From a virus (taxonomy: Duplodnaviria > Caudoviricetes): 64,000 bases of DNA. Below the pieces are notes generated by a model. That model was not told the origin of the DNA. It saw nothing but the letters and a program-made list of their open reading frames with translations, and did not search any database. Both the position numbers and the translations under genes were made by a program. This document shows positions 3,231-64,000 of this stretch, one piece after another; position 1 is the first letter of the stretch; each line of letters starts with the position of its first letter. The DNA is taken from positions 12 to 64,011 of the IMG/VR virus record IMGVR_UViG_3300044446_000019; one strand, given 5' to 3'.

Positions 3231-3256
3231 TCCTTTCTTCTCAGGTCCTTACTGCT

Positions 3257-3415
3257 CGACTTACCGAACCAGGTTCAGCTCTGCTCCACCCGACATGCCA
3301 CCGCAGCTCTAGTCGTATCTGCGCCATCCGGCTCCGACGAGCCAAATCTCCTCGGCACTTCCCTCCTCCGACGAGCCAAATCTTGTCCCCCCGACCCGAC
3401 GTTCCAAATCGGGCC
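3257..3415 (+). repeat. CGAC-(NNNNC)n array 1 (about 5 units); putative guide-RNA array
   Basis: CGAC at 3257, 3291, 3335, 3369, 3397, separated by 5-nt blocks mostly ending in C. Confidence 0.8.
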
Positions 3416-3448
3416 TTGAGCAACCCCAACCATTTCGAAGGAGGATCA

Positions 3449-4003
3449 GTGACCTCTGTTGAGCCCTACCAGCCACCGCCGAACCGAGACTACGCAGCTG
3501 ATATGCGCAAGTATCTCGACGAGGCGCGCACCGGAGGCGACAGCTACAACGCAGTAACCGCTGCCAGAGAAATTGCTCAGAAGCTACTTCAGGACGATCG
3601 GGAGCTGTATTACGGGTGGCTCGAAGCGCACGCAGAGAGCACTATCCGTACTGCCCTCGCTGCTGCTGATGCAGCCACCCGGGCTCACGCCCGCAAGAGT
3701 CCGGCCTCTGTGTTCGCTGCCGCAGCTGTTGCTGCTGAGGCAGGTGACCCACGGCCACTACGGCAGGGATTCCTGCAAGCCGTCTACACGGTAGACGCTG
3801 ACCACAACAGAAAAGCGTTGAAGGACATGAAGGCCGAGGATCTGAACTTCGTGGCCGCGTTCTATGAGGACCGGGCCCGGAGCCATATGTTCGAGGCTGC
3901 CTTCTTCCGGGCTTTGGCCAAAAAGGTGGAAGATGGCCGGGTCGCTGACAAATTCGACAACATGACACTTTCTGAACTACATAACCAAGTCACCGGTAAA
4001 TAG
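3449..4003 (+). CDS. Helical protein flanked by arrays; candidate partner of the RAMP protein
   Basis: AAGGAGG RBS before GTG 3449 (the ORF track starts at 3383, inside the array). Confidence 0.8.
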   Translation: MTSVEPYQPPPNRDYAADMRKYLDEARTGGDSYNAVTAAREIAQKLLQDDRELYYGWLEAHAESTIRTALAAADAATRAHARKSPASVFAAAAVAAEAGDPRPLRQGFLQAVYTVDADHNRKALKDMKAEDLNFVAAFYEDRARSHMFEAAFFRALAKKVEDGRVADKFDNMTLSELHNQVTGK

Positions 4004-4004
4004 T

Positions 4005-4446
4005 CGACATCTCAGGACGGCACACACCTCTACAACCCCGACCCGACAACACATGTCAACCCGGATCCAACCCGACGAGTCATAACCAACCCACGCGCAC
4101 CCGATCCGACGGGTCTACACATCCCAGGTCCTCTCTGTCCTGTACCGACGAGCCTTTTCACTTCCGTCCATCTCCAACGAGTCCATACGCCCCTAATCCG
4201 ACAAGCCGTGTCAACTCCCCACAAGTCTCGACGGGTCTTCCCGAGACTCCACCATTCCGCTCTCGTCCGACCATCCACCACCCGCCAAAGCCACAACCGA
4301 CAAGTCTCCACCCTCCCTTTCCGAGCCGACATCTCAGAACTCACCGCCCCCCGTCATTTCCGACAAGCCGGGTCTCCTACTTGTCGTTTCCTAACAGCTC
4401 CGACAACACACACCTGCCCCCTGCAATCCCACCCTCTCGACCACCC
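4005..4446 (+). repeat. CGAC-(NNNNC)n array 2 (about 13 units); putative guide-RNA array
   Basis: Tags at 4005, 4044, 4073, 4107, 4146, 4175 (CAAC), 4199, 4229, 4268, 4298, 4327, 4361, 4401, 4438; nearly every intervening pentamer ends in C. Confidence 0.9.
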
Positions 4447-4463
4447 CATGAGGAGAAAACAAA

Positions 4464-5204
4464 ATGTCCGATCGCGTATTCAGTAAATGGGACAACGAGT
4501 CCTACCCGTACCGTTTCAGGGGTCGTCTCGAACTAGGAACCCTGGTTGGTGGTGTACCCAGTGACCCGAAGGTCGCCGAGGGATGGCTGCGTTCCAAGCT
4601 ACAAGACACCGACGACCGGATCCGGGAGATGGTTGCTCAGATCATGGTGGAGCGTTCCACCTCCATGGAGGAGGCCACCGAGATCGTCAACAGTCTCAAG
4701 AACCTGAACGGTTTCAAGCACACGCCCGAGGGTGTCCTCTTCATTGAGGGGCGACAGCTCAAGGCGGCCATCAAGGAGGCCGTATCGATTGCGGTCGCGG
4801 CAAAGAAACTGGAGATGACCGGCTGGGGTGCCACTCGTAAATGGCTCACCAACTTCCTCCCCGAGCATGTGTTCATCCTTGAAGAGACGTTGGAGATTAG
4901 CCAGTGGGCCGCGAACGGCAAAGATAAGGGGGGTGACCTGGTCAAGGTCACCAAGCCGTCGGGGATCTTCCAGCAGTTCGTGCACACTCATCGGGGTTCC
5001 AGTATCCAGTACCAGGAATATGTGACGGGTGCGGTGGTCGAGTTCAATCTGATCTCCGACCACCCGTTCACCACCAAGGACTGGGGCATGATCTGGACGA
5101 CCGGCGAGAAGAATGGTCTGGGTGCTTCGCGTTCCCAGGGTTACGGCACCTATGGCGTGACCCTGTGGGAGAACACGGAGCCGGCAGCAAAGAAGGCTAA
5201 GTGA
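4464..5204 (+). CDS. Stand-alone Cas7/RAMP-superfamily protein
   Basis: N-terminal beta strand (RFRGRLEL), EGVLFIEGRQLKAAIKEA (cf. RAMP pxIPGSSLKGAxR) and C-terminal Gly-rich loop GLGASRSQGYG. Confidence 0.8.
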   Translation: MSDRVFSKWDNESYPYRFRGRLELGTLVGGVPSDPKVAEGWLRSKLQDTDDRIREMVAQIMVERSTSMEEATEIVNSLKNLNGFKHTPEGVLFIEGRQLKAAIKEAVSIAVAAKKLEMTGWGATRKWLTNFLPEHVFILEETLEISQWAANGKDKGGDLVKVTKPSGIFQQFVHTHRGSSIQYQEYVTGAVVEFNLISDHPFTTKDWGMIWTTGEKNGLGASRSQGYGTYGVTLWENTEPAAKKAK

Positions 5205-7193: not shown

Positions 7194-7211
7194 CCTTACC
7201 TGGCACAGACT

Positions 7212-7324
7212 CGACTAGACATCTCCGATCCTCCCATTTCCAACGACTCACCTCAGCACGCCGGCTCCACTCACACCGACTACTCGATGCTGCACTTCCC
7301 CAATCCACCCGGCTCCGACTATCC
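7212..7324 (+). repeat. CGAC-(NNNNC)n array 3 (about 3 units)
   Basis: e.g. CGAC tactc gatgc tgcac ttccc caatc caccc ggctc CGAC. Confidence 0.8.
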
Positions 7325-7338
7325 ACAGAGGAGTACCG

Positions 7339-13273: not shown

Positions 13274-13298
13274 TGGATCTTCTCCATGAAGACTTCCA

Positions 13299-13463
13299 TC
13301 ACTGTCGCTCCTTCATGAGCTTGTAGCAGTTGTCGCATAGATACACCCCGAACGGGAGCAGGAACTCCATCCGCAAGATGGCAGACTTCCCGCACTTGAG
13401 AACCACCGGTTTACCGGAGACCTTCTCATGGCTGACACTGGCTTCACAGGGATCCGTGCTCAT
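13299..13463 (-). CDS. Small Cys-rich protein (54 aa; not in the ORF track)
   Basis: MSTDPCEA...KCGK...LCDNCYK; fills the gap. Confidence 0.5.
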   Translation of the reverse strand: MSTDPCEASVSHEKVSGKPVVLKCGKSAILRMEFLLPFGVYLCDNCYKLMKERQ

Positions 13464-14115
13464 GAAGATGCCACCAGGTGAACCACGGCAGGTTCATGTT
13501 CCACTTGTACCCCTCATGTAATTGGAACAAAACGGGCAGGGACAGCTGGTCCTGGTGTGACCAGTTGATGCACTCCTGCCACCACTGTTCCCCGATCTCG
13601 ATAGTCTCAGGCGTATGACGTCTAACGTTTGCGCCTGTTGCGATGAGTCCCAGGCCCGCACCGTGGCCTATGGACCGGTAGAAGGCTGCCTGCTTCAAGA
13701 TGGATTCAGCGTCGTAACGCCATGTGAGTGTGGCGGAGAAGTCTGCTTCTGGGTAGATGCACGAGCGGGCTGGGTGGGGCACACAGGACCACTCGTCATC
13801 CTGGAGAGCTTCGAGGCACCGGGAGACGTAGTCATCGACCACTATCTCCATACTCCCATCAATCCACATAGTGACATCAGTGTCTGGGACGGCAAGAGCA
13901 GGGTGACACTTCCAGAACTTGTGAGCCAGCATTGGTGCAGTGATGGAGGGGGCACCCTTGAGGGTGACGATGCCATGATTTACGACCCTGACCTCCCAAC
14001 CGGGAGCATCTCGGGGACGGTCTGAGTACATGATGGCCGGCACCCCTAGGTTGGCGGGTACCGGCTTCACCCAGTCGGAGTTACCGTAGATTGCGGTATA
14101 CAGGGCCAGCTTCAC
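13444..14115 (-). CDS. Glycosyltransferase-like protein (DUF616/TOD1-type)
   Basis: YTAIYG..D...WIDGS...HPARSCIYPEA...DQLSLP. Confidence 0.8.
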   Translation of the reverse strand: MKLALYTAIYGNSDWVKPVPANLGVPAIMYSDRPRDAPGWEVRVVNHGIVTLKGAPSITAPMLAHKFWKCHPALAVPDTDVTMWIDGSMEIVVDDYVSRCLEALQDDEWSCVPHPARSCIYPEADFSATLTWRYDAESILKQAAFYRSIGHGAGLGLIATGANVRRHTPETIEIGEQWWQECINWSHQDQLSLPVLFQLHEGYKWNMNLPWFTWWHLHEHGSL

Positions 14116-14994
14116 TCAAGAACCCGTTGACGTATGTCCGCCGGTGGCCACGTAATGGGAAGTGATCGCCACCTCCTCCGGCTTGTACGAGTCGATCACC
14201 GGATCCAGATAGTGCCAACGGAACGTTGGCTGCCACCCCAGCAGTTCCCAGCCTTCACCTTGAGCGCAGATGTTGGCGCCTGCTTCCTCGCCCAGACGCA
14301 TCGGAAGCATGAGGACACCGGCGTCCTGGTTATTGGTGTAATTCTGGACGTACTCGATCACGTCCATGACGTGTTGCGGGTTACCGGTGCCGGCGTCAAA
14401 CACCTCATCGTCACCGAACCCGGTCGCCTCCACCAGCATCCGTGCCACGTCCTCAGACCGGACCATATCCACGGTCTGTGAACCGTTGCCCCACATGGGA
14501 AGCGGCTTACCCTCCCAGGCAAGGGTGGCCCAGGTCGGCAGGAACTTTTGCGGATGACCGGGGCCGTGTTTCTGGCCAGTACCAAAAGCATTGAAGGCTC
14601 GGACATGCGAAACAGGTACCGAGAAGTTCCGGTTCCAGGCTGTGGCCAATCTCTTCGCACACAGTTTCGTAGCCTGGTACACGTTCGCCCAGTTGCTGTC
14701 CGGCATCGTGATCCCAACGAAGCCGGCACTGTTCTTCTTGCACCATTCCAGGATCCTGATGGTCCCGATCACGTTGGCTTCCACGGCTTCCTCGGGAGTG
14801 TCGAACAGCTCCGCCGTCCCCAACATCCCTGCCATGTGGATCACGCATTCGGCATCCTTCAGATCTTTCAGGTCTCCGAGCACATCGTTTCCGTCAGACC
14901 GGTCAAACCTCCATGCCGTGTGTCCGTTGGCTTCCGCGTACGCAATGGTGGCGGAGCCCAGGAAGCCCCCGCCACCGGTAACTGCAATCCTCAT
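14116..14994 (-). CDS. NAD-dependent epimerase/dehydratase
   Basis: VTGGGGFLGS Rossmann motif; YQATK. Confidence 0.9.
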   Translation of the reverse strand: MRIAVTGGGGFLGSATIAYAEANGHTAWRFDRSDGNDVLGDLKDLKDAECVIHMAGMLGTAELFDTPEEAVEANVIGTIRILEWCKKNSAGFVGITMPDSNWANVYQATKLCAKRLATAWNRNFSVPVSHVRAFNAFGTGQKHGPGHPQKFLPTWATLAWEGKPLPMWGNGSQTVDMVRSEDVARMLVEATGFGDDEVFDAGTGNPQHVMDVIEYVQNYTNNQDAGVLMLPMRLGEEAGANICAQGEGWELLGWQPTFRWHYLDPVIDSYKPEEVAITSHYVATGGHTSTGS

Positions 14995-14997
14995 CCG

Positions 14998-15672
14998 CTA
15001 CTCCTCGTCCACACCGCTCAGGAAATTCTTCAGCTCTTCCAGTGCGAACACTGGATCAACAGCGTAAGCCCTGTTGATCACGTTATCTGGTACCACGTCC
15101 AGCTTGACGTAGTCCTCGGTGATGATGTGCAACAACTCGGGCATCCCGTATCTGGCGGCGCTGAGCTTCTGTTCGCGGCCGAAGCCGTACACCAGCAGCG
15201 TCCCCGTGGGCTGGGTGTTGACTTCCAGCACGGTCAGGTCTGGCCGGAAGCGCATCAGGACGTGCGTCACCTTCCATACGTCACCGGTCCAGTCACCGGG
15301 GCACTGCACCCGGTTGGCCTCTTCCTGGTTGCGTGGAAGGACATCATCGAGCACGACCACGGAATCCTTGCCCGTGTACTTCTCGATGTTCAGGAAGTCC
15401 TGGAGGGCTTGCTCGCAATGGTGCAGACCGTCAATGAAACCAAAGTCGATGGAGAAAATGGGAGGGTACGGGTTAGCGAAGTATTCGTCAGATGACATCG
15501 GGTAAACGAGCCGGTTGCCGCTGGACTGGACGAACGGTTGCGGGTCAACGCCGATGGCTACCTCGGCAGCATGGGCCAGATTCAGGCTGGCTCCATGTTG
15601 GACACCCACCTCCAGGTATACCCGAGGCTTCACTACATTGTGTACGTGAGACAAAAACTCATGCAGGTGCAT
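14998..15672 (-). CDS. Class I SAM-dependent methyltransferase (Methyltransf_24-like)
   Basis: YLEVGV..G.S...FIDGLH...DF...VLDD...WTGDVWK. Confidence 0.85.
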   Translation of the reverse strand: MHLHEFLSHVHNVVKPRVYLEVGVQHGASLNLAHAAEVAIGVDPQPFVQSSGNRLVYPMSSDEYFANPYPPIFSIDFGFIDGLHHCEQALQDFLNIEKYTGKDSVVVLDDVLPRNQEEANRVQCPGDWTGDVWKVTHVLMRFRPDLTVLEVNTQPTGTLLVYGFGREQKLSAARYGMPELLHIITEDYVKLDVVPDNVINRAYAVDPVFALEELKNFLSGVDEE

Positions 15673-15709
15673 ACGATCACCGTGTCGTCTGTAGGGTTAC
15701 CATCTCCTG

Positions 15710-16138
15710 ATGGTAACCGCTGAGGATAGATTCTGGGGAAAAGTCGAGAAAGGTCACCATTGGATATGGCAGGGGAGACCGAACGGTCATGGATACGGAC
15801 GTATCAGTGTCAACGGGAAACTTCGGTACGCTCACGTTTTCTCGTACCAGCTGAACGTGGGTGAGATTCCTCAGGGCCTTCAGATTGACCACCTGTGCCG
15901 GGTCCGTATATGTGTCCGACCTGATCATCTGGAGGCAGTGACGCAGGGGACCAACCTCCTGAGAGGAATCGGGATCGCTGCGATCAACGCCAAGAAGACC
16001 CATTGCCCTCAGGGTCATCCACTGGCATATCCCAACGTCTATATATGGAGAGGATGTCGCCGCTGTATCCGCTGCAACAATGAAGCGCAGGCATGCAGGC
16101 GTCACCAAGGACGTCTCCCCCATTTATCCACAAAGTAG
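15710..16138 (+). CDS. HNH homing endonuclease, antisense insertion
   Basis: RFWGKV...GYG...AH...IDHLCR...CVRPDHLEAVT..N...KTHCPQGH. Confidence 0.9.
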   Translation: MVTAEDRFWGKVEKGHHWIWQGRPNGHGYGRISVNGKLRYAHVFSYQLNVGEIPQGLQIDHLCRVRICVRPDHLEAVTQGTNLLRGIGIAAINAKKTHCPQGHPLAYPNVYIWRGCRRCIRCNNEAQACRRHQGRLPHLSTK

Positions 16139-16767
16139 GCCATGTCTCTGGCGATACATTCCTGGAGTTCGGGAGTCACTTGTCCATTGGGGTACAGGTG
16201 TTCAACGGGGTACCCACCCACCATATTCATGCCGCCAGCCTCACGGGAACGCCAGTCCAGGTCATCGTCACCGGCCCACCATTGGAATCTCTCATCTGCC
16301 CGGAGCCTTTTCTCACCGGCCAGCATGAAAGCGAACCCCTGCATTCGTACTTCCAGCGGTACGGCTACTGGAGTCAGTAGGACCGAGTCACTGACGCCAG
16401 GATGTCCACCGGAACAGGCAGCAGCGCAGTCGAACTTCCGTAGACCTATTGCTACAGCTTCGAACCAGCCCGATGGAACAATGACGTCGTCATTGATGAC
16501 GGCCACGTCCCAGGTTTCTTTCTTCTCTATCTCCGCCAACATGGCCACTGTCTCAAGGCCCTGGTTCCACCAGCAGGAAATGTTGACGGCATCGCAGTAC
16601 GTGTACGCCCAACCTATTTTCCTGCCGGCCAGGTGTTTGTGTACGAAATCTGGGAACACATCTGGAGAGGTTCGGATCAGGTATACGAAATCAACCTGGG
16701 GCACGATCGCATCCAGACACTGTTCCAGGCAGTCACGCCCGTTCGTCGGGATCACGGCGAACTTCAC
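16102..16767 (-). CDS. Glycosyltransferase family 2-like
   Basis: AVIPT...WNQG...INDDV...DERF.WW.GDDDL. Confidence 0.8.
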   Translation of the reverse strand: MKFAVIPTNGRDCLEQCLDAIVPQVDFVYLIRTSPDVFPDFVHKHLAGRKIGWAYTYCDAVNISCWWNQGLETVAMLAEIEKKETWDVAVINDDVIVPSGWFEAVAIGLRKFDCAAACSGGHPGVSDSVLLTPVAVPLEVRMQGFAFMLAGEKRLRADERFQWWAGDDDLDWRSREAGGMNMVGGYPVEHLYPNGQVTPELQECIARDMAYFVDKWGRRPW

Positions 16768-16927
16768 CCGTCACCTCCAGGTTGAACATGTAGTTCAGTG
16801 CGGCGGCTAGACCTGCCCGCCTCCGGTCACCTGGTGCGTCCGGAGGTGTCGACGCCCATGCCTGGTGGAAGACTTCAAGGGTTGTTTCATCGAAGTCTTC
16901 CGGCGAGAACCATATTTTCGTCTCCAT
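16733..16927 (-). CDS. Hypothetical protein
   Basis: Coupled ORF. Confidence 0.5.
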   Translation of the reverse strand: METKIWFSPEDFDETTLEVFHQAWASTPPDAPGDRRRAGLAAALNYMFNLEVTGEVRRDPDERA

Positions 16928-17148
16928 CAGAACGCCGGCAATCCGTAGTGCTTCCGCCCGCAGGTGGAGCAGCGAGCAGACACAGTGGACGTGTCTTCTT
17001 CCAAGCCACCGGCACCGATGCGACCAGTGGGCTGGACCGAGTAGACCCCGGCTCCACAGTCAACACAGACGTCAGCTATCAGAGGGCCGTGGATGGTTTC
17101 CCGGAAGCTGTAGCCATCCTTGAAACGGTGCCAGGCTCCAGCGATCAT
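16927..17148 (-). CDS. Small Zn-ribbon protein
   Basis: CVDCG...CSTCG. Confidence 0.55.
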   Translation of the reverse strand: MIAGAWHRFKDGYSFRETIHGPLIADVCVDCGAGVYSVQPTGRIGAGGLEEDTSTVSARCSTCGRKHYGLPAF

Positions 17149-17154
17149 GTGCGC

Positions 17155-17502
17155 TCACTCATAGGTAGTTACCGTGATCTGCTTCGCGAATGTCTGAGTC
17201 AACGTGATCGTATCGTCGTACTCGCCCCAGAAATCAACGTTGGATTCACCCGCCGCGATCTCGTACATGAACGAGAACAGCTCGGTGGAGTCATCCTGCC
17301 GGATGACTAACTGGTACATGATGGTCCACCGGGTCTTTCCGTCGATCCCATTGTGCTCCACGTGCCAAAGGACCCCATGTTCATCGGACTGGGTCTCACC
17401 CACCCTGGAGAAACTCAGTTCTGTCAGAGTGTCCTTGTCGATGGTGGCCCCTAGGCGCGTTCCATGAGCATTGCCGCTGTCCATGCTTCGTGCCACCTCC
17501 AA
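17155..17502 (-). CDS. Hypothetical protein (start uncertain)
   Basis: RW...YQLVIR...KQITVTTYE, phage-like. Confidence 0.55.
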   Translation of the reverse strand: MEVARSMDSGNAHGTRLGATIDKDTLTELSFSRVGETQSDEHGVLWHVEHNGIDGKTRWTIMYQLVIRQDDSTELFSFMYEIAAGESNVDFWGEYDDTITLTQTFAKQITVTTYE

Positions 17503-18512
17503 GCATTTGCCTGGATTGTCTGATCTGCCATGTATTGCCTCCCCATTTCAGCCTGCTCCTTGCGGAGCACGTCATCAGTGAGCAGGCGCTTGAGCTGGGC
17601 GTACCACTCTTTCGGGGTGGCAGCGAGAAGCCCGCAACCTGACTCACGGTTGAGCTTACGGTACTCCTCCCGTGGTGAAGCAATCCACGGAACACCCACT
17701 GCCATGTGCTCGATCCCCTTGAGCCTGGACTTCGAGGCGTTGAACGCAGTGGGCTCCAAGGGGACCATGGCTACGCTGTACGTCTCCGACAGCGCCTTGT
17801 TCCAGTCGGTCAGGGGCACGGAGCCGGTACACGGTGGCGCCTCCTTGAGCCTGAGGACGTCCTTCACCTTGCTCTCGGGCCCAACGACCCTGAACGGGAA
17901 ACCTTCCTCTATGAGCTGCTGAGCGGCCTTGCCTACCTCTTGTAGGTCCCCTGGGTGGGAGATAGTGGTACCACCCCACCCAAACCCATCCGTATCCACT
18001 GCCGGGTAGCCCAACACAGCGGCCGGGACGTAGTTGTCGATGACAACTCCTCGCCCGTGCTTCGCGTAGACCTTCTGCAACCTGGCCGTGCTGGTGGTGA
18101 CCAAGGTGGCACGCTTGCAGCATTCCATTGCCCATTTCCAGGACAGCGGGGAGCGCTTGTTGCTATGGCGGTACGTCTGGTACGCGATGTTATTCGGATG
18201 GATGCTGGACATGTCATCGTCCATATCGATGATGACAGCTACCTTGTTCTGACGCAGGATCTCGATCATTTGAGCTTGGAGTGGGTGAGCGGGGCGCTGC
18301 ACTACGAGGACATCGGCGTCAGCTGGAACCTGAATCGAGACAACCTTCTGACTGCCGTCCGGGAGGTCCTCTGTCTTACAGGCGATGCCAGACTCTTTGC
18401 TGGGTGGCATGATCGTGATATCCATGCCCTGATCGTGAAGTGCTTGCGCGGGCCAGATGAGGCGGTAGTGCCCGCATCCATGGAGATCAGCCGGTAGCAC
18501 ATACACCTTCAT
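17451..18512 (-). CDS. Glycosyltransferase (GT-B/GT4-like)
   Basis: GCGHYRLIWP...VVQR...DMDDD...PLE..FN.SKS.LKGIE...GVPWIASP. Confidence 0.85.
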   Translation of the reverse strand: MKVYVLPADLHGCGHYRLIWPAQALHDQGMDITIMPPSKESGIACKTEDLPDGSQKVVSIQVPADADVLVVQRPAHPLQAQMIEILRQNKVAVIIDMDDDMSSIHPNNIAYQTYRHSNKRSPLSWKWAMECCKRATLVTTSTARLQKVYAKHGRGVVIDNYVPAAVLGYPAVDTDGFGWGGTTISHPGDLQEVGKAAQQLIEEGFPFRVVGPESKVKDVLRLKEAPPCTGSVPLTDWNKALSETYSVAMVPLEPTAFNASKSRLKGIEHMAVGVPWIASPREEYRKLNRESGCGLLAATPKEWYAQLKRLLTDDVLRKEQAEMGRQYMADQTIQANAWRWHEAWTAAMLMERA

Positions 18513-41725: not shown

Positions 41726-43640
41726 GGAGGAAGCCCTGTCGCGACAGCATTTCCCAGAGGAGACCGGCTTCGTGTGGACGCTCAGCTTCCAGCAGCGTGG
41801 AGCAGTAGCGGTGCAGAGTGACGGCCAGCTCGGGGTCCTGGAGTTGTGGCATCTCCAGGAACTCGGCGAGCGCGGGCATCTGGTCCCACGCCCCGGTGAG
41901 TAGCTTGGAAGCACCACCAGCCTGCACTTTGACCTTGGTGTGCAGCGAATAGGCGGGAGTGTCCTGCATTGTCCGATGATGATTACCGACTAGTCGCTTT
42001 CCGGCGACTTCGAGCGCACGCAAAACCGCCATATTCGCGACAGCAAACACGGCTTGCGTTCCGGGGACCACGGAGGCGGAAGCAGTTATCCCAGGTGGCT
42101 GACTGGAGTTTGGTGCAGTTGGTCCACCTGGTGTGGACAGGGCCGACGAGTCTTGCGGCATCGGCGATGGTCCGGTGGGCTGGATTCCGGTAGGTGGAGC
42201 AGGGGGCGGTGGAGGACCCGCCCCCTGCTGACCGGGTACCTGTGGCGTCACGACGGTATTCGGGGGAAGAATTTCGTCGGTGTACCCGGCGATCTTGCGT
42301 ACCGCTGGGATCTGGAACAGCGTCGGGTCGCGTTCCATCAGGGTGCGGGTGAAGTACATCAGGTCTTCCTCGCGACTGGGCTTGTCGCTCAGCTTGAAGT
42401 CACCAGCAAGGATGACCGCTTCGTCCGAGATGATGTGTTTTTCGTTCAGATTCAGGGCGTCCTTCAGTCGCTCCGGGCGTACGGTCAGCGGAGCGGTGTC
42501 GAACCAGAAGACGAACCGGTCCGGGTCTTCCTTGATCGCCTTCAGAGCCGGGGTCAGGTACGCCGTGGTCAGGGCGTCACAAATCCGAGTCATCAGGGGT
42601 TCAATGTGGATCTTTATATTCGCTTCTTCGACGTGCCAGGCGCTCCAGTGGTTTGCATCGCCAGTGCCTGTGAGGATCTCCGGAGCGATATCCATAGCCA
42701 GGGCGAAACGACGGATGGCCTCTGCGCGGAGGTCCAGCGCCTGTTTGCTGAGATCCGAACCGAAGGTGACCATCTCGATCTTGCCGAGGGCATCCATCGG
42801 TACCTCGACGAACATGGGCACGACACCTGCTGCGGTCCCCTCACCCTTCAGCGACCGGGACCCAGCTTTCATCATCGCCTGGGTGAGACCCTCAGCCCCA
42901 GGGACAGTGACGTCGTTACTGTCGTCCGGGAAGGACGCCTCTTTCGGGATGGGAACCATGCCCGCTGAGATCAGCCGAGAATCGATCTGGGCGAAGACGT
43001 ACCGGGTTAGTCGCTCGATCTCCCAGAGCATCGGCATAGCCGCACGGGTAGGCGAGTCCGCCCACAGAGAACGACGCGGATGGGGCGTCCAGACCCGGAT
43101 GACAATGTCCTTGTCCAGGTCCAGTGATTCTTTAGTGCCGTCCGGATACAGCTGCTGAACGTTGCCGTTCCAACGCTTGAGCTCGGAACAACTGACGATG
43201 TACCACTCGTCAGCTTCGTTGTCACGGACCGCGCCCCGGCCCACGATGTAGCAATCACCCGCAACAGTGAGATTGATACCCAACATCCGCAGGGCTTCCG
43301 ACTGTGCCGCTGGGGAACCGAACATGTTCTCTGCAACGGCGGCGACCTTCGGCTTCTTCGTCTCCTGCTGGACGCGACCGTTCTTGTCAACCTCAGCCAC
43401 ATAGATGCGGACCCTGGAGCACGCGGACCCGATCCAGTTCGCCGCGAACCTCAGCTCACCGATGATGTCGTACAGGCGCCAGACTTCCTGCTGCCACGAG
43501 TCATCACCGAAGCGATAGGTCCGCCATCCCTGCCCGTCAATGTTCCTAATCCGGGCGGCGGAGGCAATCAGTGAAGTGAGTTCCGAAGGGTGTTCCGGTT
43601 CCGGTGCGGCAACTGGGGCCTTGGGCCGGCGGATTCCCAT
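41712..43640 (-). CDS. Portal protein
   Basis: WQQE.W..YD.IGELRF, RVW.PHP...ADSP, PEILTG...NHWSAW. Confidence 0.9.
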   Translation of the reverse strand: MGIRRPKAPVAAPEPEHPSELTSLIASAARIRNIDGQGWRTYRFGDDSWQQEVWRLYDIIGELRFAANWIGSACSRVRIYVAEVDKNGRVQQETKKPKVAAVAENMFGSPAAQSEALRMLGINLTVAGDCYIVGRGAVRDNEADEWYIVSCSELKRWNGNVQQLYPDGTKESLDLDKDIVIRVWTPHPRRSLWADSPTRAAMPMLWEIERLTRYVFAQIDSRLISAGMVPIPKEASFPDDSNDVTVPGAEGLTQAMMKAGSRSLKGEGTAAGVVPMFVEVPMDALGKIEMVTFGSDLSKQALDLRAEAIRRFALAMDIAPEILTGTGDANHWSAWHVEEANIKIHIEPLMTRICDALTTAYLTPALKAIKEDPDRFVFWFDTAPLTVRPERLKDALNLNEKHIISDEAVILAGDFKLSDKPSREEDLMYFTRTLMERDPTLFQIPAVRKIAGYTDEILPPNTVVTPQVPGQQGAGPPPPPAPPTGIQPTGPSPMPQDSSALSTPGGPTAPNSSQPPGITASASVVPGTQAVFAVANMAVLRALEVAGKRLVGNHHRTMQDTPAYSLHTKVKVQAGGASKLLTGAWDQMPALAEFLEMPQLQDPELAVTLHRYCSTLLEAERPHEAGLLWEMLSRQGFLHGES

Positions 43641-43642
43641 TG

Positions 43643-43933
43643 CTACTCCCTGTCAGCCATACGAAGGAAAATGGCTGCCGCCATGGACCCGGCAGGGATA
43701 GAGAAAGCCGCGAGGACCCACTGGTTGGGCCAGAAAACGGCCACCGGCAGTAGGACCGAAAACCACATGGACATACACCAGGGTGCGCAGTGGACCAGCT
43801 TAGTGATCAAGGTATCGGTGCCGAAACGGTTGATGATGGCCCTGCGAAACCCGACGGTGAGGTCATCCTCGGCAATGAGCCGAGCGAGCCGGGCTGCGGC
43901 GAAGGCGGCCACGATCAGGGTAAGGACCAGCAC
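43643..43933 (-). CDS. DUF1360-like membrane protein
   Basis: ARL.RLI..D...C.PWCMSMW. Confidence 0.7.
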   Translation of the reverse strand: MLVLTLIVAAFAAARLARLIAEDDLTVGFRRAIINRFGTDTLITKLVHCAPWCMSMWFSVLLPVAVFWPNQWVLAAFSIPAGSMAAAIFLRMADRE

Positions 43934-43992
43934 GTCTACTACTCTAACGGGATCAAGACCACAAGAGGTAGATAGCACACGGCTCTAACATT

Positions 43993-44020
43993 TTGGACAT
44001 TGCCTGGGGAGGGGTAGGGT
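43993..44020 (+). promoter_or_regulatory. Putative + strand promoter for array 4
   Basis: TTGGAC...GGGGAGGGG-TAGGGT ending 13 nt before the first CGAC. Confidence 0.55.
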
Positions 44021-44033
44021 GATGGAGACAATT

Positions 44034-44426
44034 CGACGCGCTTCATGTTCTTACTGTTCTCCTCCGACTCGCCGGATCGCCCCAATATCATCCGACTTCC
44101 CTCGACAGCTCTTTCCATCCCGACCCTCTCGACGAATCTCCACTGCGCCGGTCGGACCCGACGAATCTCCACTTCTCACTCCCGTGTCGACTACCCGTCT
44201 CGTCTCCGACATGCCTAACCAAGTCGCCCCAACCCATCCGACACGTCTATATCTCTCCGGATTCCGGTCTGGTGCTGGCTCGTTCCGAGCTGACATATCG
44301 CGTCCTCTTACTTCCACCTCCGACATGTCAAACCTCCCCGAATCCGTTCCGACTGCCCCTATCCGCCCGGGTCAGGTCTCCCTCGACAAGCCGGGCCATT
44401 CCGACCCGAGTCTCATACGACTTACC
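44034..44426 (+). repeat. CGAC-(NNNNC)n array 4 (about 12 units), between terL and the DUF1360 gene
   Basis: e.g. CGAC gaatc tccac tgcgc cggtc ggacc CGAC; CGAC atgtc aaacc tcccc gaatc cgttc CGAC. Confidence 0.85.
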
Positions 44427-45858
44427 ACTGCGGTTGGAGCTGGGACAGGTCGTAAAACTCCTGGCCCAGGTTCCACTCCTGCGCGGAGGGTTGAGCGATC
44501 TTCATGACGCGACGCTCTCCGCGCATCAGGTGGAGGCAGCCATGAACAAGGGCATCCATCCGGTCGGGAGATTCCCTTGTGGACTCGGGATCGAACATGG
44601 TCATCTCGGTTTCGAGGTCGTCCCACTCACCGACCATGTGTAGCCGGCCCTGTTCGCAGCGCATGGCTACCGGCTCAGCTCTTGTACGTTTGCCATGTTT
44701 CGCGTGCACAGGATACATAGATGGAGAGCTATGTTCAGGGAAAAGACCGAGAGTTATCGACTCTTTGAAGGCATCCTGCAATACTTCCGCGAGATACCTT
44801 TTGCCGAGGTTCTCCTCGTAGACGAGGGTATCGGCGCCCCACTTAGACATTGCTCGCCAGGCTGCCAAAGCTGCTGTGCGACCACTCTGTTCGACACTGG
44901 CGTCCTCAAGCACATAGAGATCGTTGTTCACGGTCCGCGCAACGACCACGATCCCGAACAGGTCGTCCTCACCGGTCAGGTTTGGGTCCACTCCAACAAT
45001 GGTGCTGACGATGTCAGTCGGGATTTCAGTCACGCGACCCTTGACTATGTCCATCCGTTTGAATAGGCCACCGGCCCCCAGTTCCAGTAGCTTCCCGTAC
45101 AGCTCCTGTTGACCCAGATCTGAGTCCGCGTACCGGATCTTCAACTCCCGCAGCACATGCGCGGACAAGTTGGTCGCGTTGTCGAAAGTAGAACCCCCCA
45201 TAATGTGGATGGTCCCGTCATCACGCTTCACCCACTCCTGAAGCAGCTTGATTGGCTTCGGCGTAGTGGTGGCGAAGCAGCGAGGATGGTCGTCCATCAA
45301 GTCAGTACGTAAAGACGGGAGGATCCCCTCATACCAGCTCTCATACGACTTCGGCCATTTACAGATCTCATCTACCCAGGCGCCGGCCGCGTTATAACCT
45401 CGGCCCACGTCCTCATCGTCCGCCCCTTCGGCGTAGATCCGAGACCCGTCTGGGAACAGAACCATCGGCCGTGGGCTCTGCTTATACCGAAAGTCAATGC
45501 CCCGACGTGTGAGTACGCGCAGCAGACCTGCTGGACCCTCCATACAGATCGTTCGAGTGTCAGCCAGGGTCTCACCGATCAGCAACCACTCAGTTGGTTG
45601 CCCGTTACGGTCGAATGGATGTTGCAGAACCTTTTCCACGAGCCACTCTGCCCCTGCTCGGGATTTCCCCCAGCCGCGCCCCGCGAGTGCCAGTGCTACC
45701 AGCCAATTCCCCGGTGGTGGCACCTGCTCCGGGCGGGCTGTCCACCACCACTCCCCGCGATTGATCTCCAGCAGCATGTTCAGGGGTAGCGACCTGATCC
45801 AGCTGTCCCGCTCATGGGCAGGGAGCTTAGCCACCCGTTGTGCCAGAGATAAACCCAT
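44422..45858 (-). CDS. terL: Terminase large subunit
   Basis: AGRGWGKSR Walker A, WVDE Walker B, VGVDP and SPDRMDA nuclease motifs. Confidence 0.95.
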   Translation of the reverse strand: MGLSLAQRVAKLPAHERDSWIRSLPLNMLLEINRGEWWWTARPEQVPPPGNWLVALALAGRGWGKSRAGAEWLVEKVLQHPFDRNGQPTEWLLIGETLADTRTICMEGPAGLLRVLTRRGIDFRYKQSPRPMVLFPDGSRIYAEGADDEDVGRGYNAAGAWVDEICKWPKSYESWYEGILPSLRTDLMDDHPRCFATTTPKPIKLLQEWVKRDDGTIHIMGGSTFDNATNLSAHVLRELKIRYADSDLGQQELYGKLLELGAGGLFKRMDIVKGRVTEIPTDIVSTIVGVDPNLTGEDDLFGIVVVARTVNNDLYVLEDASVEQSGRTAALAAWRAMSKWGADTLVYEENLGKRYLAEVLQDAFKESITLGLFPEHSSPSMYPVHAKHGKRTRAEPVAMRCEQGRLHMVGEWDDLETEMTMFDPESTRESPDRMDALVHGCLHLMRGERRVMKIAQPSAQEWNLGQEFYDLSQLQPQW

Positions 45859-45901
45859 GTGTCCACATTAGGCGCTTTCGCTCACGGTGAATAAGAACCA
45901 G

Positions 45902-45930
45902 TTGCATCCCCAGGGGAGGGGAGCTACGGT
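45902..45930 (+). promoter_or_regulatory. Promoter of the rightward operon
   Basis: TTGCAT-17 bp-TACGGT with GGGGAGGGG in the spacer. Confidence 0.65.
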
Positions 45931-45936
45931 TGCAAC

Positions 45937-46194
45937 ATGAGCAACGATCACCTGGAAGATCACGAACTCATTGCCATGACTCAGCAATACGACCAGACAC
46001 CAGACGGTGAGTACGTCACCCACCTGGCCTACGCTGAGATCAACCGGCAAGGGGCAGCCGGTCGTCAGTGGGCGAAGTGTCCCAACTGCGGCGACCCTTA
46101 CCCACTAGACAGGGAAGGGGCAGGTGACACAGTCTGTAGTACGAAATGCTTCGATGAGTATTTGATCTACGTGACAAATGAATCGGGCTTCTAG
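45937..46194 (+). CDS. Small Zn-finger protein
   Basis: CPNCG...CSTKC. Confidence 0.65.
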   Translation: MSNDHLEDHELIAMTQQYDQTPDGEYVTHLAYAEINRQGAAGRQWAKCPNCGDPYPLDREGAGDTVCSTKCFDEYLIYVTNESGF

Positions 46195-50312: not shown

Positions 50313-50972
50313 GTGAGCATGTTTGACAGCGAACCAGCGCGTAGCAACGAAACAGAATCGCTCTACCCAACCCACTGCGTCGGTCACCTGTTGATGGTGT
50401 GGTTCACCGGCTATATCGAGAATTCCCCGACCAGGTTCACGGTGCCGGGGAAGAAGTCCGATGCGGTGGTGGTGGACATCGTCGACCTGGATCAGGCCGG
50501 CGAAGACGGTTATCAGGGCAGGGTGTACCGCCAGACCTGGTGGCGTCCGGGTCGCCTGATCGGGTTCGGCCGCCCACGCATCGGGCGCGCGCAGCCGGTG
50601 ATCGCCCGCATGATCAAGGGGGAGATGGTCATGGGCAACTACCCGTACGAGCTGGAATTAATGGATCATGATTCGGACTGCGTGAGTCGGGGGGCAGCCT
50701 GGTTCCAGGCCAATCCGGGTTTCCGGCCCACGGTGGCCCTCGGACATGGCAGCGATGTCCAGACGGAGCCACCACCGAACCAGGCCCCAGTGCAACGGCA
50801 GATGAGTCAACTGGAGCAGTTGGCCGCGTCCCGGATGCCGGTGACGCCGACTCAGCACACCAACGGTCTGCGGGAGGCTACGGGCCGGCCGCCGGTTACG
50901 CCACCGCCCCCTCCACCTCCACCGCCTCAGCGTCCAGCGGACACTATTGCGGACTCAGAGATTCCGTTCTAG
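50313..50972 (+). CDS. Probable single-stranded DNA-binding protein
   Basis: Beta-rich N-terminus (DAVVVDIVDLD), Pro-rich linker, acidic EIPF tail. Confidence 0.6.
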   Translation: MSMFDSEPARSNETESLYPTHCVGHLLMVWFTGYIENSPTRFTVPGKKSDAVVVDIVDLDQAGEDGYQGRVYRQTWWRPGRLIGFGRPRIGRAQPVIARMIKGEMVMGNYPYELELMDHDSDCVSRGAAWFQANPGFRPTVALGHGSDVQTEPPPNQAPVQRQMSQLEQLAASRMPVTPTQHTNGLREATGRPPVTPPPPPPPPPQRPADTIADSEIPF

Positions 50973-56814: not shown

Positions 56815-57147
56815 TCAAGCATCCTCAGAGATCATTTCCTTTGTGGAGTGATCATCTCCGTTGCCGAGTTTGATCTCCGGGAAGGCCTCCTTCTCCGGCT
56901 GGTGGAACTCGGTGGCCCGCAGCCGCAGAAGTCGCTCTTCCATCGACAAGGGCAACTTCATCCCCTTGCAGAAGGATCGGATTATCCGTTCAGTGGGTCT
57001 CCAGCGGCCGATCTCGATGAGCCCCCAGCAGCCGTTGCTGATACCGGTGAGGTCTGCGACCTCCCGCTGCGTCAGGTCTGCTGTGTGTCGGAGCTGACGC
57101 ATCACCCTGCCCTCGGGGCTGGGTTCGTACTTCGGTCTATATACCAT
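56815..57147 (-). CDS. XRE-family HTH regulator
   Basis: LR..ADLTQREVADLTGIS...IE.GR..P. Confidence 0.85.
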   Translation of the reverse strand: MVYRPKYEPSPEGRVMRQLRHTADLTQREVADLTGISNGCWGLIEIGRWRPTERIIRSFCKGMKLPLSMEERLLRLRATEFHQPEKEAFPEIKLGNGDDHSTKEMISEDA

Positions 57148-57278
57148 CCTCCCACCTTACACCCCCCCCCTCCCGTGTACCAGTGGCAGGAAACTAAAGG
57201 GGTTCATCGATGGAATGGCAGGAAACTAAAGGGGTTCATCGATATCTCCGATCCCCTGACCAGCAGAAACAGGAACCG

Positions 57279-57800: not shown

Positions 57801-58263
57801 ACAGGCAGCATGTGCCTGGCAATGATGCATATCAACATGCAGTCGTAGTGCCACCAGGTATCCTGTATCCGAACACCTGTATCAGGGCTCAAGAGTAAGG
57901 GCAACGTTCTTAACAGATCGAAGAGGAGCACTGCAACAGGTGAGCTTCCGTATCAGGAACCAGTGCTATGCGGGCCCCTTAAACCGGACAAAACCGGTTT
58001 GCCTGTTGCCTGCCCTTACATGACACATATCCCCTGTGTCCGGTTTGGGTGGTGTGCCCTGTATCAGGTTGTGGATCATGGGGGTGAGGGGATGAGTCAT
58101 GATCGTTGATCTTGGTTAGTTGATCAATCGAGCGCTTGCTCTTGATCATGGATAGTGGATCATGGGGGTGATGGATCATGACTCAGGGTGACCTGAGCCC
58201 CAGCTGCCGCCCAGGAGGACTGGCCGCGCGGGTCCCTGCCCCAGCTGGGGAGTAGCAGCGTCG

Positions 58264-58548
58264 TCAGCTGGGGCAGGGGAGGGAGGTTAGGGGAGGGAGG
58301 TTAGGGGATCGAGGGTAGGCGCCACCATCCTCCAGTCCGAGGGCGTACGCACGGTTCACGAGGTCACGGCTGTCTGCCACCTGATCTTCTCTACCGTTCT
58401 GGTACGCCTTATTCAGCGCGGCAGCCACACGGTCAGCTACCTTGCGCGTCAGCCCGGTAATTGTGTCGCTGACGCCGGAGCCCTGGTCGTTGTGCTCGTC
58501 AACAGCATGATACCCATTACGGCCATTGACCAGATATGTACGCTTCAT
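58264..58548 (-). CDS. Hypothetical protein ending inside the IR
   Basis: AAAGGG RBS; divergent from 58678. Confidence 0.6.
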   Translation of the reverse strand: MKRTYLVNGRNGYHAVDEHNDQGSGVSDTITGLTRKVADRVAAALNKAYQNGREDQVADSRDLVNRAYALGLEDGGAYPRSPNLPPLTSLPCPS

Positions 58549-63762: not shown

Positions 63763-63960
63763 ATGGCACGTCCACAGTGGACCGCAATACAGGCGTACGA
63801 TCCCGATGAGGGTAGGTGGTATGACCTTGCCGTGCTCCCTTCACAGCGAGCGGCACGCGGTCAGTTGGCTTTCTACCGTCTCACCGGTGGTAGTGGTCGA
63901 CGTCATCGCCTGCTACGGACCGGTCCTACCGCCCTCGATCCCCTAACCTCCCTCCCCTAA
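63763..63960 (+). CDS. Hypothetical protein ending inside the IR
   Basis: AGGAGG RBS. Confidence 0.6.
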   Translation: MARPQWTAIQAYDPDEGRWYDLAVLPSQRAARGQLAFYRLTGGSGRRHRLLRTGPTALDPLTSLP

Positions 63961-64000
63961 CCTCCCTCCCCTGCCCCAGCTGACGACGCTGCTACTCCCC
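63932..64000. repeat. Inverted repeat copy (partial, runs off the window end); exact revcomp of 58247-58315
   Basis: Direct comparison. Confidence 0.97.

What the first reader, a model, noticed from the sequence alone, without database searches (positions are those of the whole stretch)
43993..44426. Orphan array 39 kb from the RAMP gene, antisense within the late operon, with its own promoter
SEEN: about 12 CGAC-(NNNNC)n units fill the gap between terL and the DUF1360 gene. They have the same + strand polarity as the other arrays although all flanking genes are on the - strand. A promoter-like element with the phage GGGAGGGG motif and TAGGGT lies just upstream. CGACAAGCCGGG is shared with array 2 (4361 vs 44384). 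INFERENCE: the C-rich strand is the functional RNA, arrays act in trans and can be dispersed, and read-through would be antisense to terL.
Basis: partly seen in the sequence, partly recalled or inferred. Interest (0 to 1): 0.75.

Follow-up and report, generated by a model that had tools for sequence, protein, structure and literature searches.

The report
Orphan guide-RNA array of phage VIPR-like system
The C-rich stretch between the terminase and DUF1360 genes is a real, separately promoted array of five-base-periodic repeat units that belongs to this phage's small RAMP (Cas7-like) protein system, a kind of phage RNA-guide system first described in a 2026 preprint, here in a form that reads C where the described ones read G.

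Summary
The terL–DUF1360 gap holds 15 CGAC (34 per kb against 6 per kb in the window). Each is followed by pentamers ending in C, with C at +8, +13, +18 and +23. Three more arrays lie at 3231-3448, 4004-4463 and 7200-7338, all on the + strand.

The '39 kb away' gene (4464-5204) has a predicted Cas7/Csm3-like RAMP fold, with no sequence-family hit. Same-strand arrays flank its homologues in 20 of 24 viral loci, 9 of 9 actinobacterial loci and Microcystis phage Mae-JY09. A helical partner gene (3449-4003) accompanies it in 18 of 25 loci.

This architecture matches VIPR systems (bioRxiv 10.64898/2026.04.26.720920): a small RAMP, an accessory gene and pentanucleotide-repeat guide RNAs. The 5k-1 unit spacing fits that paper's 'staggered arrays'.

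In relatives the terL-side array body cannot be aligned, while its flanks are 78-87% identical and a -35/-10-like element at its 5' edge is kept.

Expression, the RNA strand and the targets are not shown. The described VIPR repeats end in G, so the G-rich strand is a live rival. I rate this a new variant of a newly known kind.

The parts
43993..44020 (+). promoter-like element: -35 TTGGAC (43993-43998), 16-nt spacer holding GGGGAGGGG, -10 TAGGGT (44015-44020)
   Evidence: The same place holds a TANNNT hexamer with a -35-like hexamer 16-19 nt upstream in L001, L003-L006 (TAGGGT), L017 (TACGAT), L020 (TAGGGT) and L022 (TTGCCC-N17-TATTAT). An E. coli-type consensus scan does not call it.
44034..44421 (+). 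array 3: about 10-11 units of CGAC followed by pentamers NNNYC; start-to-start spacings include 29 (x3) and 34
   Evidence: blastn homology to relatives stops at 44030 and resumes at 44417.
44019..44507 (+). 162-aa open frame across array 3, judged not coding
   Evidence: Its translations in close relatives are not alike, and L005's frame breaks at 54 aa. 27 of 75 frames across other arrays of 250 nt or more are also stop-free.
44422..45858 (-). terminase large subunit gene
   Evidence: Pfam Terminase_6N E 1.2e-21 and Terminase_6C E 3e-9. PHROG 2.
43643..43978 (-). DUF1360 gene; its start may be the GTG at 43933 (inference from conservation)
   Evidence: Pfam DUF1360 E 1.2e-4, PHROG 781.
4464..5204 (+). 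246-aa RAMP-fold (Cas7/Csm3-like) protein, Vipr-like
   Evidence: Model pLDDT 74.6. Foldseek best hit 8z4j_J E 2.3e-5, and 33 hits at E <= 0.001, every listed one a CRISPR effector complex. VIA-align Z 10.4 to Csm3 9g9a_D. No Pfam or NCBIfam family.
3449..4003 (+). 184-aa helical partner gene (vap-like) between arrays 1 and 2
   Evidence: Homologues lie upstream of the RAMP gene in 18 of 25 loci. hhalign to the Mae-JY09 neighbour gives probability 96.1%, E 3.3e-9. No fold match.
3231..3448 (+). array 1
4004..4463 (+). array 2, directly upstream of the RAMP gene; 12 strict units

Best explanation
Array 3 is an orphan array of guide-type repeat RNAs belonging to the phage's VIPR-like system. That system comprises a small RAMP protein (4464-5204), a helical accessory protein (3449-4003) and arrays of CGAC-punctuated pentanucleotide repeats.

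Proposed working:
- A sigma-A-type promoter (TTGGAC-N16-TAGGGT) fires rightwards near 44027.
- The roughly 400-nt C-rich, unstructured transcript is made of units of k pentamers that overlap by one base (spacing 5k-1).
- The RAMP protein, made from the early + strand operon, binds these units in trans, one subunit per pentamer. It holds the conserved Y-C (and the CGAC punctuation) and exposes the fast-changing first three bases.
- By analogy with published VIPR, the particles recognise DNA of competing phages or prophages and silence it.
- The transcript converges on terL.

Shown here: the grammar, its specificity, its linkage to the RAMP and partner genes over wide evolutionary distance, the fast turnover of the variable positions and of whole units, and the retention of a promoter-like element.

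Inferred only: transcription, the strand, protein binding, processing and targeting.
For: Grammar: 225 CGAC-anchored units from 17 arrays in 6 related genomes have C at +8/+13/+18/+23 in 85/82/79/75%. Spacings peak at 29, 34 and 39, with secondary peaks at 33 and 38.

Specificity: 24 of 35 CGAC in arrays are perfect, against 11 of 360 and 1 of 343 elsewhere. In six whole genomes there are 20 strict clusters on the RAMP gene's strand and 1 on the other.

RAMP fold.

Linkage: same-strand arrays lie within 4 kb of the homologue in 20 of 24 IMG/VR loci and on the opposite strand in 0 of 24. The figures are 9 of 9 and 0 of 9 in Actinomycetota genome loci. Mae-JY09 (34% identity) has the same grammar just downstream of the gene, with C at 81-94%. 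The partner gene is found in 18 of 25 loci and in Mae-JY09.

Turnover: homology to relatives breaks exactly at 44030 and 44417 while the flanks are 78-87% identical. Among close relatives, mismatches are 17-26% at pentamer positions 1-3, against 6% in CGAC and 7% at the fifth C.

Promoter: a TANNNT hexamer with a -35-like partner is kept at the array's 5' edge in diverged lineages although its letters differ. Stricter promoter-like sites occur at 4 of 54 array 5' ends on the C-rich strand, at 1 of 54 array 3' ends on the other strand and in 14 of 1120 random windows.

No structure beyond shuffles: z +0.91.

Known precedent: VIPR, as read in the Results, Discussion and part of the Methods. The phiSUSP1 locus shows GGYNN tracts co-directional with its RAMP gene, with a TTGACA-N17-TATACT promoter before the upstream tract.
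Against: No RNA evidence of any kind. All pentamer consensuses named in the preprint's text end in G (YNNGG, NNNGG, YNNNG, NNNNG). The window's - strand reads NNNGR, which fits those better than the + strand's NNNYC does. The promoter is not called by an E. coli-type consensus scan (0 sites). Its G-rich core occurs at 10 places in the genome and could be a ribosome-binding site or another signal. The RAMP assignment rests on a predicted model of middling confidence (pLDDT 74.6). Profile comparison with phiSUSP1's putative Vipr finds nothing (probability 0.3%). No targets were found for 185 units under 12 reading rules in 0.84 Mb of related phage DNA. Array 3 is less regular than array 2.
Confidence: 0.6

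Rival explanations
1. Same system, other strand. The functional RNA is the G-rich - strand, reading (GRNNN)n-GTCG. At the terL site it is made simply by read-through of the late operon from terL towards DUF1360 and then processed. The conserved block at 43993-44030 would then be something else: a tail, a signal for DUF1360, or a ribosome-binding site.
For: All repeat consensuses named in the VIPR preprint end in G, and the GGY bases are needed for function. The - strand of these arrays reads G (about 80%) followed by R (about 80%) and then NNN (complement). At terL this strand is the sense strand of both flanking genes, so no promoter is needed.
Against: Nearly all other arrays would then be antisense to their neighbours. 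These comprise 20 of 24 and 9 of 9 RAMP loci plus arrays 1, 2 and 4 here. Only about 25-60 nt separate the last unit from the RAMP start codon, which leaves no room for an outward promoter. In phiSUSP1 the guide tracts are co-directional with the RAMP gene. Promoter-like sites are found at 4 of 54 array 5' ends on the C strand, against 1 of 54 on the other strand at 3' ends. The block at 43993-44030 is absent from arrays 1, 2 and 4.
Confidence: 0.2
2. A DNA-level element: repeated binding sites (iterons, a packaging or partition site next to terL) for a phage protein acting on double- or single-stranded DNA, with no RNA involved.
For: It lies next to terL. All arrays share one genomic polarity whatever their neighbours' direction. 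The anchor is short and conserved.
Against: A strict 5-nt register with unit lengths stepping by 5 and strong C/G strand skew is not what duplex-binding sites at helical spacing look like. The main site of the arrays is beside the RAMP gene, not beside terL. 20 of 32 terL loci have no such array. A RAMP fold is an RNA-binding fold in its solved relatives.
Confidence: 0.07
3. A leftover or passive C-rich spacer: a decaying copy of the RAMP-side array, or a Rho-loading (rut-like) stretch that only stops stray antisense transcription.
For: Array 3 is less regular than array 2 and has a degenerate patch at about 44250-44320. C-rich, G-poor, unstructured RNA is what Rho prefers (general knowledge).
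Against: The site keeps 5-10 strict units in each of the relatives that have it, up to about 1 kb in G003, although the sequence itself turns over. That points to maintenance of the grammar rather than decay. Composition alone does not explain the register or the CGAC punctuation.
Confidence: 0.08
4. It encodes a protein: ORF 44019-44507 (+), 162 aa, with GGGGAGGGG as its ribosome-binding site 4 nt before the GTG.
For: A strong Shine-Dalgarno-like run sits at a good distance from GTG/ATG. The frame from the conserved GTG stays open across the array in the window, L001, L003, L004 and L006.
Against: The products are low-complexity and unalike even between close relatives, and L005's frame stops at 54 aa. 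The periodicity is 5, not 3. The grammar allows stops only in the first three pentamer positions, so open frames are common: 27 of 75 frames in other arrays of 250 nt or more. Array 2 is not open. The ORF has no Pfam family.
Confidence: 0.03

Closest known systems
VIPR (Viral Interference Programmable Repeat) systems, bioRxiv 10.64898/2026.04.26.720920 (Results, Discussion and parts of Methods and legends read; supplements closed)
   Same: Phage-borne. A single small RAMP-fold protein outside any CRISPR locus. A two-gene operon with an accessory gene. Long flanking intergenic regions filled with pentanucleotide tandem repeats, in which some positions are fixed and others hypervariable. Arrays with their own promoters. 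Guide arrays found in elements that lack the protein gene (satellites). 'Staggered' arrays in which neighbouring guides overlap by 1 nt, which fits the 5k-1 spacing seen here.
   Different: On the RAMP gene's sense strand the fixed bases are Y-C rather than GGY, and three positions vary rather than two. Units are short (5-8 pentamers, against 9-16). They are bounded only by CGAC, with no roughly 40-nt structured tail. Arrays reach 1-1.8 kb in some relatives. One array sits 39 kb from the protein gene, antisense among late genes. No sequence similarity to phiSUSP1's protein was detected. Hosts appear to be Actinomycetota, which the preprint's main text does not mention.
Cas7 backbones of class 1 CRISPR effectors (Csm3/Cmr4, type VII Cas7, type IV Csf2)
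   Same: Predicted fold (Z up to 10.4). A glycine-rich loop near the C terminus that is invariant in the family (G218, G220, G226, G228). The idea of one subunit per fixed step along an RNA, with RNA lengths stepping by that unit.
   Different: The step is 5 nt, not 6. There are no 25-40-nt direct repeats, and no cas or adaptation genes among the neighbours tested. Guides are genome-encoded and constrained at every fifth base. No sequence-profile match.
RNA anti-CRISPRs (Racr; PMC10651486, abstract seen in the search listing only)
   Same: Phage-encoded non-coding repeat RNAs that engage Cas7-type proteins.
   Different: Racrs mimic the host's CRISPR repeats. Here the same CGAC/pentamer grammar travels with the phage's own RAMP gene across phages of 52-72% G+C and into a Microcystis phage. 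That argues for a self-contained pair rather than host mimicry.
Type III toxin-antitoxin loci such as ToxIN (recalled, not looked up)
   Same: A repeat array directly upstream of, and co-directional with, the gene of the protein that binds it.
   Different: ToxI repeats are near-identical 36-nt units. Here units differ in sequence and length, and the protein has a RAMP fold.

Membership tests
VIPR | small stand-alone RAMP-fold protein (RRM core, G-loop, thumb) outside a CRISPR locus | tested here: met
   Predicted fold matches Csm3/Cas7. Invariant glycine-rich stretch at 218-228. No cas family among 30 neighbouring and other ORFs scanned in Pfam. The thumb was not inspected separately.
VIPR | sequence relatedness to an experimentally studied Vipr (phiSUSP1) | tested here: inconclusive
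   hhalign of family profile A1 against the 195-aa phiSUSP1 gene product: probability 0.3%. The preprint itself says RAMPs share little sequence similarity. Which phiSUSP1 gene is vipr is my inference from its position.
VIPR | accessory (vap) gene in a two-gene operon | tested here: met
   A conserved 170-200-aa helical gene lies upstream of the RAMP gene in 18 of 25 loci and in Mae-JY09. No similarity to phiSUSP1's neighbour. Its function is unknown.
VIPR | flanking intergenic arrays of pentanucleotide tandem repeats | tested here: met
   Period 5. Found in 20 of 24 and 9 of 9 loci.
VIPR | repeat consensus GGY/NN or a named variant (NNNGG, YNNNG, NNNNG) on the vipr-sense strand | tested here: not met
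   The sense strand reads NNNYC. A G-type reading appears only on the antisense strand. Fig. S17 and data S4 of the preprint could not be seen.
VIPR | fixed scaffold positions with hypervariable specificity positions | tested here: met
   Mismatch rates are 17-26% at positions 1-3, against 6-7% at CGAC and the fifth C. These come from three non-independent pairs of close relatives. Array bodies are unalignable between relatives.
VIPR | conserved structured 3' tail after each repeat tract | tested here: not met
   Units abut with only CGAC between them. Folding energy is no better than shuffles. The preprint's 'staggered arrays' may lack such tails (legend S18).
VIPR | guide RNAs expressed and bound by the protein | not testable with these tools
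   No RNA run holds the stretch.
VIPR | natural targets in competing phages found by a gapped reading rule | tested here: inconclusive
   19 and 185 units were tested under 16 and 12 rules against 0.78-0.84 Mb of related phage DNA. None beat the shuffled guides. The units carry little information and the database is small.
CRISPR array with class 1 effector | direct repeats of about 25-40 nt separated by unique spacers | tested here: not met
   Tandem Repeats Finder and the repeat finder report nothing at the arrays. Only a 4-5-nt anchor recurs.
CRISPR array with class 1 effector | 6-nt register of Cas7 along the guide | tested here: not met
   The register is 5 nt and unit lengths step by 5.
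Pfam RAMPs (PF03787) / NCBIfam Cas7 families | profile match at the curated threshold | tested here: not met
   0 of 39 family members reach any RAMP model. The best are Csm4 in 2 of 39 at E 0.068, plus single members to Cas6 and Csx10.

The most novel reading that the evidence does not exclude
This actinophage clade runs a mirror-image VIPR code. The guide is the C-rich strand, the protein grips Y-C instead of GGY, and three bases per pentamer carry specificity. Guides are packed as 1-nt-overlapping units punctuated by CGAC. The phage also keeps a second, separately promoted guide array 39 kb away whose transcription collides with terL. That would couple guide production to, or damp, the start of late packaging-gene expression.
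Probability: 0.4. Interest if true: 0.75.

Novelty: new variant of a known kind. Interest (0 to 1): 0.6.

Why it matters
VIPR was described in 2026 from proteobacterial phages as a possible ancestor of CRISPR effectors and as a very small programmable DNA binder. A clade that keeps the five-base register but swaps the fixed bases (Y-C for GGY) and reads three bases per repeat would show that the scaffold code is itself evolvable. That would widen the design space for such tools. The terL-side array gives a natural case of a guide array acting in trans, far from its protein gene. It has its own promoter and points against late genes, so both trans action and regulatory side-effects can be tested directly. 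If the preprint's unseen supplementary types already cover this clade, or if the G-rich strand is the RNA, the finding reduces to a new member of that kind.

Tried and rejected
- DNA similarity of 43600-46000 to 50,697 phage records: no match.
- Rfam: only tRNAs.
- E. coli-type promoter and terminator scan of 43500-44900: 0 promoters, and 1 terminator-like site unrelated to the array.
- Sequencing runs: 7 soil-metagenome DNA holders, no RNA holder listed.
- Self-targeting: array units against the window's own masked genome gave best hits of 11-13 nt, no better than shuffled units.
- Target search with gapped rules: no enrichment.
- Complex prediction of the RAMP protein with the partner protein: no verdict, score 0.00 against a mark of 0.32.
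- Partner protein fold: no Foldseek match at E <= 0.001, and best VIA Z 4.8 on a 39-43-residue helical piece.
- Pfam on its 18 homologues: nothing shared.
- A 100-nt Fourier scan for period 5 failed because the phase slips by one base at every unit. It was replaced by the anchored test.
- One literature search was swamped by the everyday word 'ramp-like'.
- HRAMP/ARAMP are archaeal, array-less systems and do not fit.
- No paper mentions Mae-JY09. Searches for 'Cas7' with 'actinobacteriophage' and for 'Cas7-like' with 'phage' found nothing on this system.
- Supplementary files of the preprint were not available.
- I did not scan public collections with gapped guide patterns, because that would have meant typing altered sequence.

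Full report
**What the window is.** The window is all but the first 11 bases of a 64,011-bp single-contig virus record. The record's best DNA holder is a soil metagenome run. Genes run rightwards to about 11.5 kb, leftwards from about 45.9 kb to 11.9 kb (structural and late genes, starting with terL), and rightwards again from 45.9 kb. Pfam finds terminase, a weak portal match, DUF1360, three DUF6197 paralogues, RusA and a primase-polymerase/D5 helicase. TerL's nearest named relatives are Microbacterium, Gordonia and Arthrobacter phages, at 32-37% identity.

**The observation.**
- The 443-nt gap between terL (44422-45858, -) and the DUF1360 ORF (43643-43978, -) is 38% C and 21% G on the + strand.
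- It holds 15 CGAC, which is 34 per kb against 6.2 per kb window-wide, and only 3 GTCG.
- Each CGAC is followed by pentamers whose fifth base is C. In array 3, C takes 75% of those positions (n=65) and 18-52% of the other four offsets.
- Window-wide, 24 of 35 CGAC inside arrays have C at all of +8, +13, +18 and +23. The figures elsewhere are 11 of 360 on the + strand and 1 of 343 on the - strand.
- The same grammar fills 3231-3448 and 4004-4463.
- All four arrays are on the + strand.
- The promoter-like TTGGAC-N16-TAGGGT with its GGGGAGGGG core sits at 43993-44020.
- The 12-base match between 4361 and 44384 is there.
- Tandem Repeats Finder, the generic repeat finder and Rfam see nothing at these sites, because only four or five bases recur.

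**The grammar across relatives.**
- TerL found 32 related IMG/VR loci at 60-97% identity. Five near-complete contigs were fetched whole.
- Pooling 225 CGAC-anchored units from 17 arrays in the six genomes gives C at +8, +13, +18 and +23 in 85, 82, 79 and 75%. A pyrimidine precedes each of these C positions.
- CGAC-to-CGAC spacings peak at 29 (19 cases), 34 (22) and 39 (14), with 33 (14) and 38 (12) beside them. That is 5k-1.
- By a strict rule (three or more perfect units within 150 nt), the six genomes hold 20 arrays on the + strand and one 3-unit cluster on the other strand.

**The protein.** ORF 4464-5204, directly after array 2, has no Pfam, PHROG or NCBIfam family. It belongs to a family of at least 1,320 unnamed proteins.
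- An AlphaFold model built from a 39-sequence alignment has pLDDT 74.6 and pTM 0.72.
- Foldseek against the PDB gives 33 hits at E <= 0.001. Every listed one is a CRISPR effector-complex entry: type VII, and type III Csm and Cmr. The best is 8z4j_J at 2.3e-5.
- An independent all-against-representatives search puts Csm3 first: 9g9a_D at Z 10.4, rmsd 3.7 over 157 residues, and 6ae2_B at Z 9.8. The first 34 rows are all CRISPR RAMP or Cas7-type chains.
- The family has an invariant glycine-rich stretch at residues 218-228.

**Linkage of protein and arrays.**
- All 5 fetched relatives have the gene, and each has an array ending just before it.
- Of 24 IMG/VR loci found with the family profile (26-74% identity, 52-70% G+C), 20 have strict arrays on the gene's strand within 4 kb. 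None has one on the other strand. One array holds 35 perfect units over 1.8 kb.
- The four loci without a strict array are one with a weaker array, one with the gene at a contig edge, one at 49% identity and one at 26% identity.
- Nine of 9 loci in bacterial genome records have same-strand arrays. All nine records are Actinomycetota: Nocardiopsis, Streptomyces, Streptacidiphilus, Pedococcus, Nanopelagicales and others. One of them is the same contig as an IMG/VR locus.
- The only named phage with a homologue is Microcystis phage Mae-JY09, at 34% identity, E 4e-25. It carries the same grammar in the unannotated 517 bases after the gene, with C at 81-94% of the periodic positions and spacing mostly 33.
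- A second gene travels with it. The 184-aa helical ORF 3449-4003 between arrays 1 and 2 has homologues upstream of the RAMP gene in 18 of 25 loci.
- The same partner is present in Mae-JY09: hhalign probability 96.1%, E 3.3e-9 over 72 columns.
- The partner's model (pLDDT 85.7) matches no solved fold.

**The terL-side array in relatives.**
- Twelve of 32 terL loci carry a strict array just downstream of terL, always antisense to it. Twenty have none there. Several of the twelve are near-duplicates of one another.
- G005 has the RAMP gene and a 1-kb array beside it but nothing at terL.
- blastn of the window against L001, L003, L005 and L006 aligns at 78-87% up to 44021-44031 and again from 44410-44419. 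The array body does not align, apart from one 38-nt patch in L001 (alignment).
- Among three close relatives that still align in part, whole units come and go. Mismatches run at 17, 21 and 26% at pentamer positions 1-3, 13% at position 4, 7% at the fifth C and 6% in CGAC. These come from three non-independent pairs.

**The promoter.**
- The block just left of the array is conserved in close relatives.
- In more distant relatives its letters differ, but a TANNNT hexamer with a -35-like hexamer 16-19 nt upstream stays within 4-17 nt of the first unit.
- Examples are TACGAT in L017, TAGGGT in L020 and TTGCCC-N17-TATTAT in L022.
- An E. coli-type consensus scan does not call the window's site. TAGGGT fits only the looser TANNNT form, which I recall as usual in Actinomycetota.
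- With a stricter definition, promoter-like sites occur at 4 of 54 array 5' ends on the C-rich strand. They occur at 1 of 54 array 3' ends on the other strand and in 14 of 1120 random windows.
- Most arrays have none, which suits co-transcription with the upstream genes.
- The GGGAGGGG core occurs at 10 places in the genome and may also act as a ribosome-binding site.

**Not coding, not structured.** A 162-aa frame (44019-44507) runs through array 3 from a GTG that follows the G-rich run.
- The corresponding frames in L001, L003, L004 and L006 are open, but their products are unalike. L005's frame stops at 54 aa.
- The grammar itself suppresses stops: 27 of 75 frames across other arrays of 250 nt or more are stop-free.
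- The + strand RNA folds no better than shuffles, with z +0.91 for array 3 and -0.66 for array 2.

**What is known.** A literature search found bioRxiv 10.64898/2026.04.26.720920. I read its Results, Discussion, the first two of four parts of Methods and the supplementary figure legends S10-S22. It describes VIPR systems as follows:
- They are mostly phage-borne.
- They comprise a minimal RAMP protein (Vipr), an accessory gene (vap) and guide RNAs made of 9-16 YNNGG pentamers with a 3' tail.
- The GGY is held fixed, and the NN read double-stranded DNA with a one-base skip.
- Natural targets are competing phages and satellites.
- There are seven types, with variant consensuses NNNGG, YNNNG and NNNNG.
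- Array forms include 'staggered' arrays in which neighbouring guides overlap by one base.

That overlap predicts exactly the 5k-1 spacing seen here. I fetched phiSUSP1 and found GGYNN tracts in the two gaps flanking a 195-aa and a 146-aa gene. The tracts are co-directional with those genes, and a TTGACA-N17-TATACT promoter precedes the upstream tract. Profile comparison of the present families with those two proteins finds nothing. The preprint would expect this for RAMPs.

**Same and different.** The architecture is that of VIPR. The differences are:
- On the RAMP gene's sense strand the fixed bases are Y-C, not GGY.
- Three positions vary rather than two.
- Units are short and bounded only by CGAC.
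- One array lies 39 kb away among opposite-strand late genes.

The - strand reads NNNGR, which resembles the preprint's NNNGG and NNNNG. The strand is therefore the open question.
- For the C-rich strand: the co-orientation of nearly all arrays with their flanking genes, the lack of room for outward promoters, the phiSUSP1 precedent and the promoter evidence.
- For the G-rich strand: the base preference of the described systems.

I put this at about 3 to 1 for the C-rich strand.

**Targets.** No unit matches the phage's own genome beyond chance. Guides read under 12-16 rules found no excess of good matches in 0.78-0.84 Mb of related phage DNA. The units carry only 10-24 informative bases, so this says little.

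**Verdict.** It remains unproven on expression and strand. The system belongs with, or very near, a kind published in 2026. As far as the readable text goes, the C-type sense-strand grammar, the CGAC punctuation and the remote antisense array are new variations.

Noticed in passing
window 1-110 vs 57144-57253; 58247-58315 vs 63932-64000: Both ends of the contig are perfect inverted copies (110 nt and 69 nt, 100%) of internal sequence about 6-7 kb from the right end. This could be an assembly fold-back or a real invertible or terminal structure.
   Followed up: no
window 80, 9014, 44007, 45914, 48703, 56457 (+); 57174, 27774, 6111, 2680 (-): GGGAGGGG occurs at 10 sites, often as CA-GGGAGGGG-TARGGTG. 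At 44007, 56457 and 6111(-) a GTG follows 4-5 nt later. It could be a phage promoter core, a strong ribosome-binding site, or both.
   Followed up: partly
window 51761 and 51833; also 10784, 27760, 30706, 33709, 38897: Isolated perfect CGAC+4C units lie outside the arrays, two of them 72 nt apart inside the primase-helicase gene. They may be chance or solitary units.
   Followed up: no
G004 (IMG/VR contig of L020) 50537-50614: This is the only strict 3-unit cluster on the strand opposite to the RAMP gene among the six whole genomes.
   Followed up: no
L056 (Mae-JY09) 5115-5143: A perfect G+C-rich hairpin (GGAACTTCCCCC...GGGGGAAGTTC) lies about 30 nt after the last array unit, near the end of the record. 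It is a possible transcript end.
   Followed up: no
window 1051-2176: Three tandem DUF6197 paralogues with a 69-nt repeat family.
   Followed up: no
window 12680-18512 (-): A cluster of glycosyltransferases, an NAD-dependent epimerase/dehydratase and a methyltransferase sits within the leftward gene block. This is a phage-borne sugar-modification module.
   Followed up: no
window 7136-7195: A long hairpin lies immediately before array 4. It has no T run, and its role is unknown.
   Followed up: no
L060 2137-3944; L077 3172-6885: Some relatives carry very large arrays: 35 perfect units over 1.8 kb in one, and three arrays of 22, 9 and 15 units around the RAMP gene in another.
   Followed up: partly
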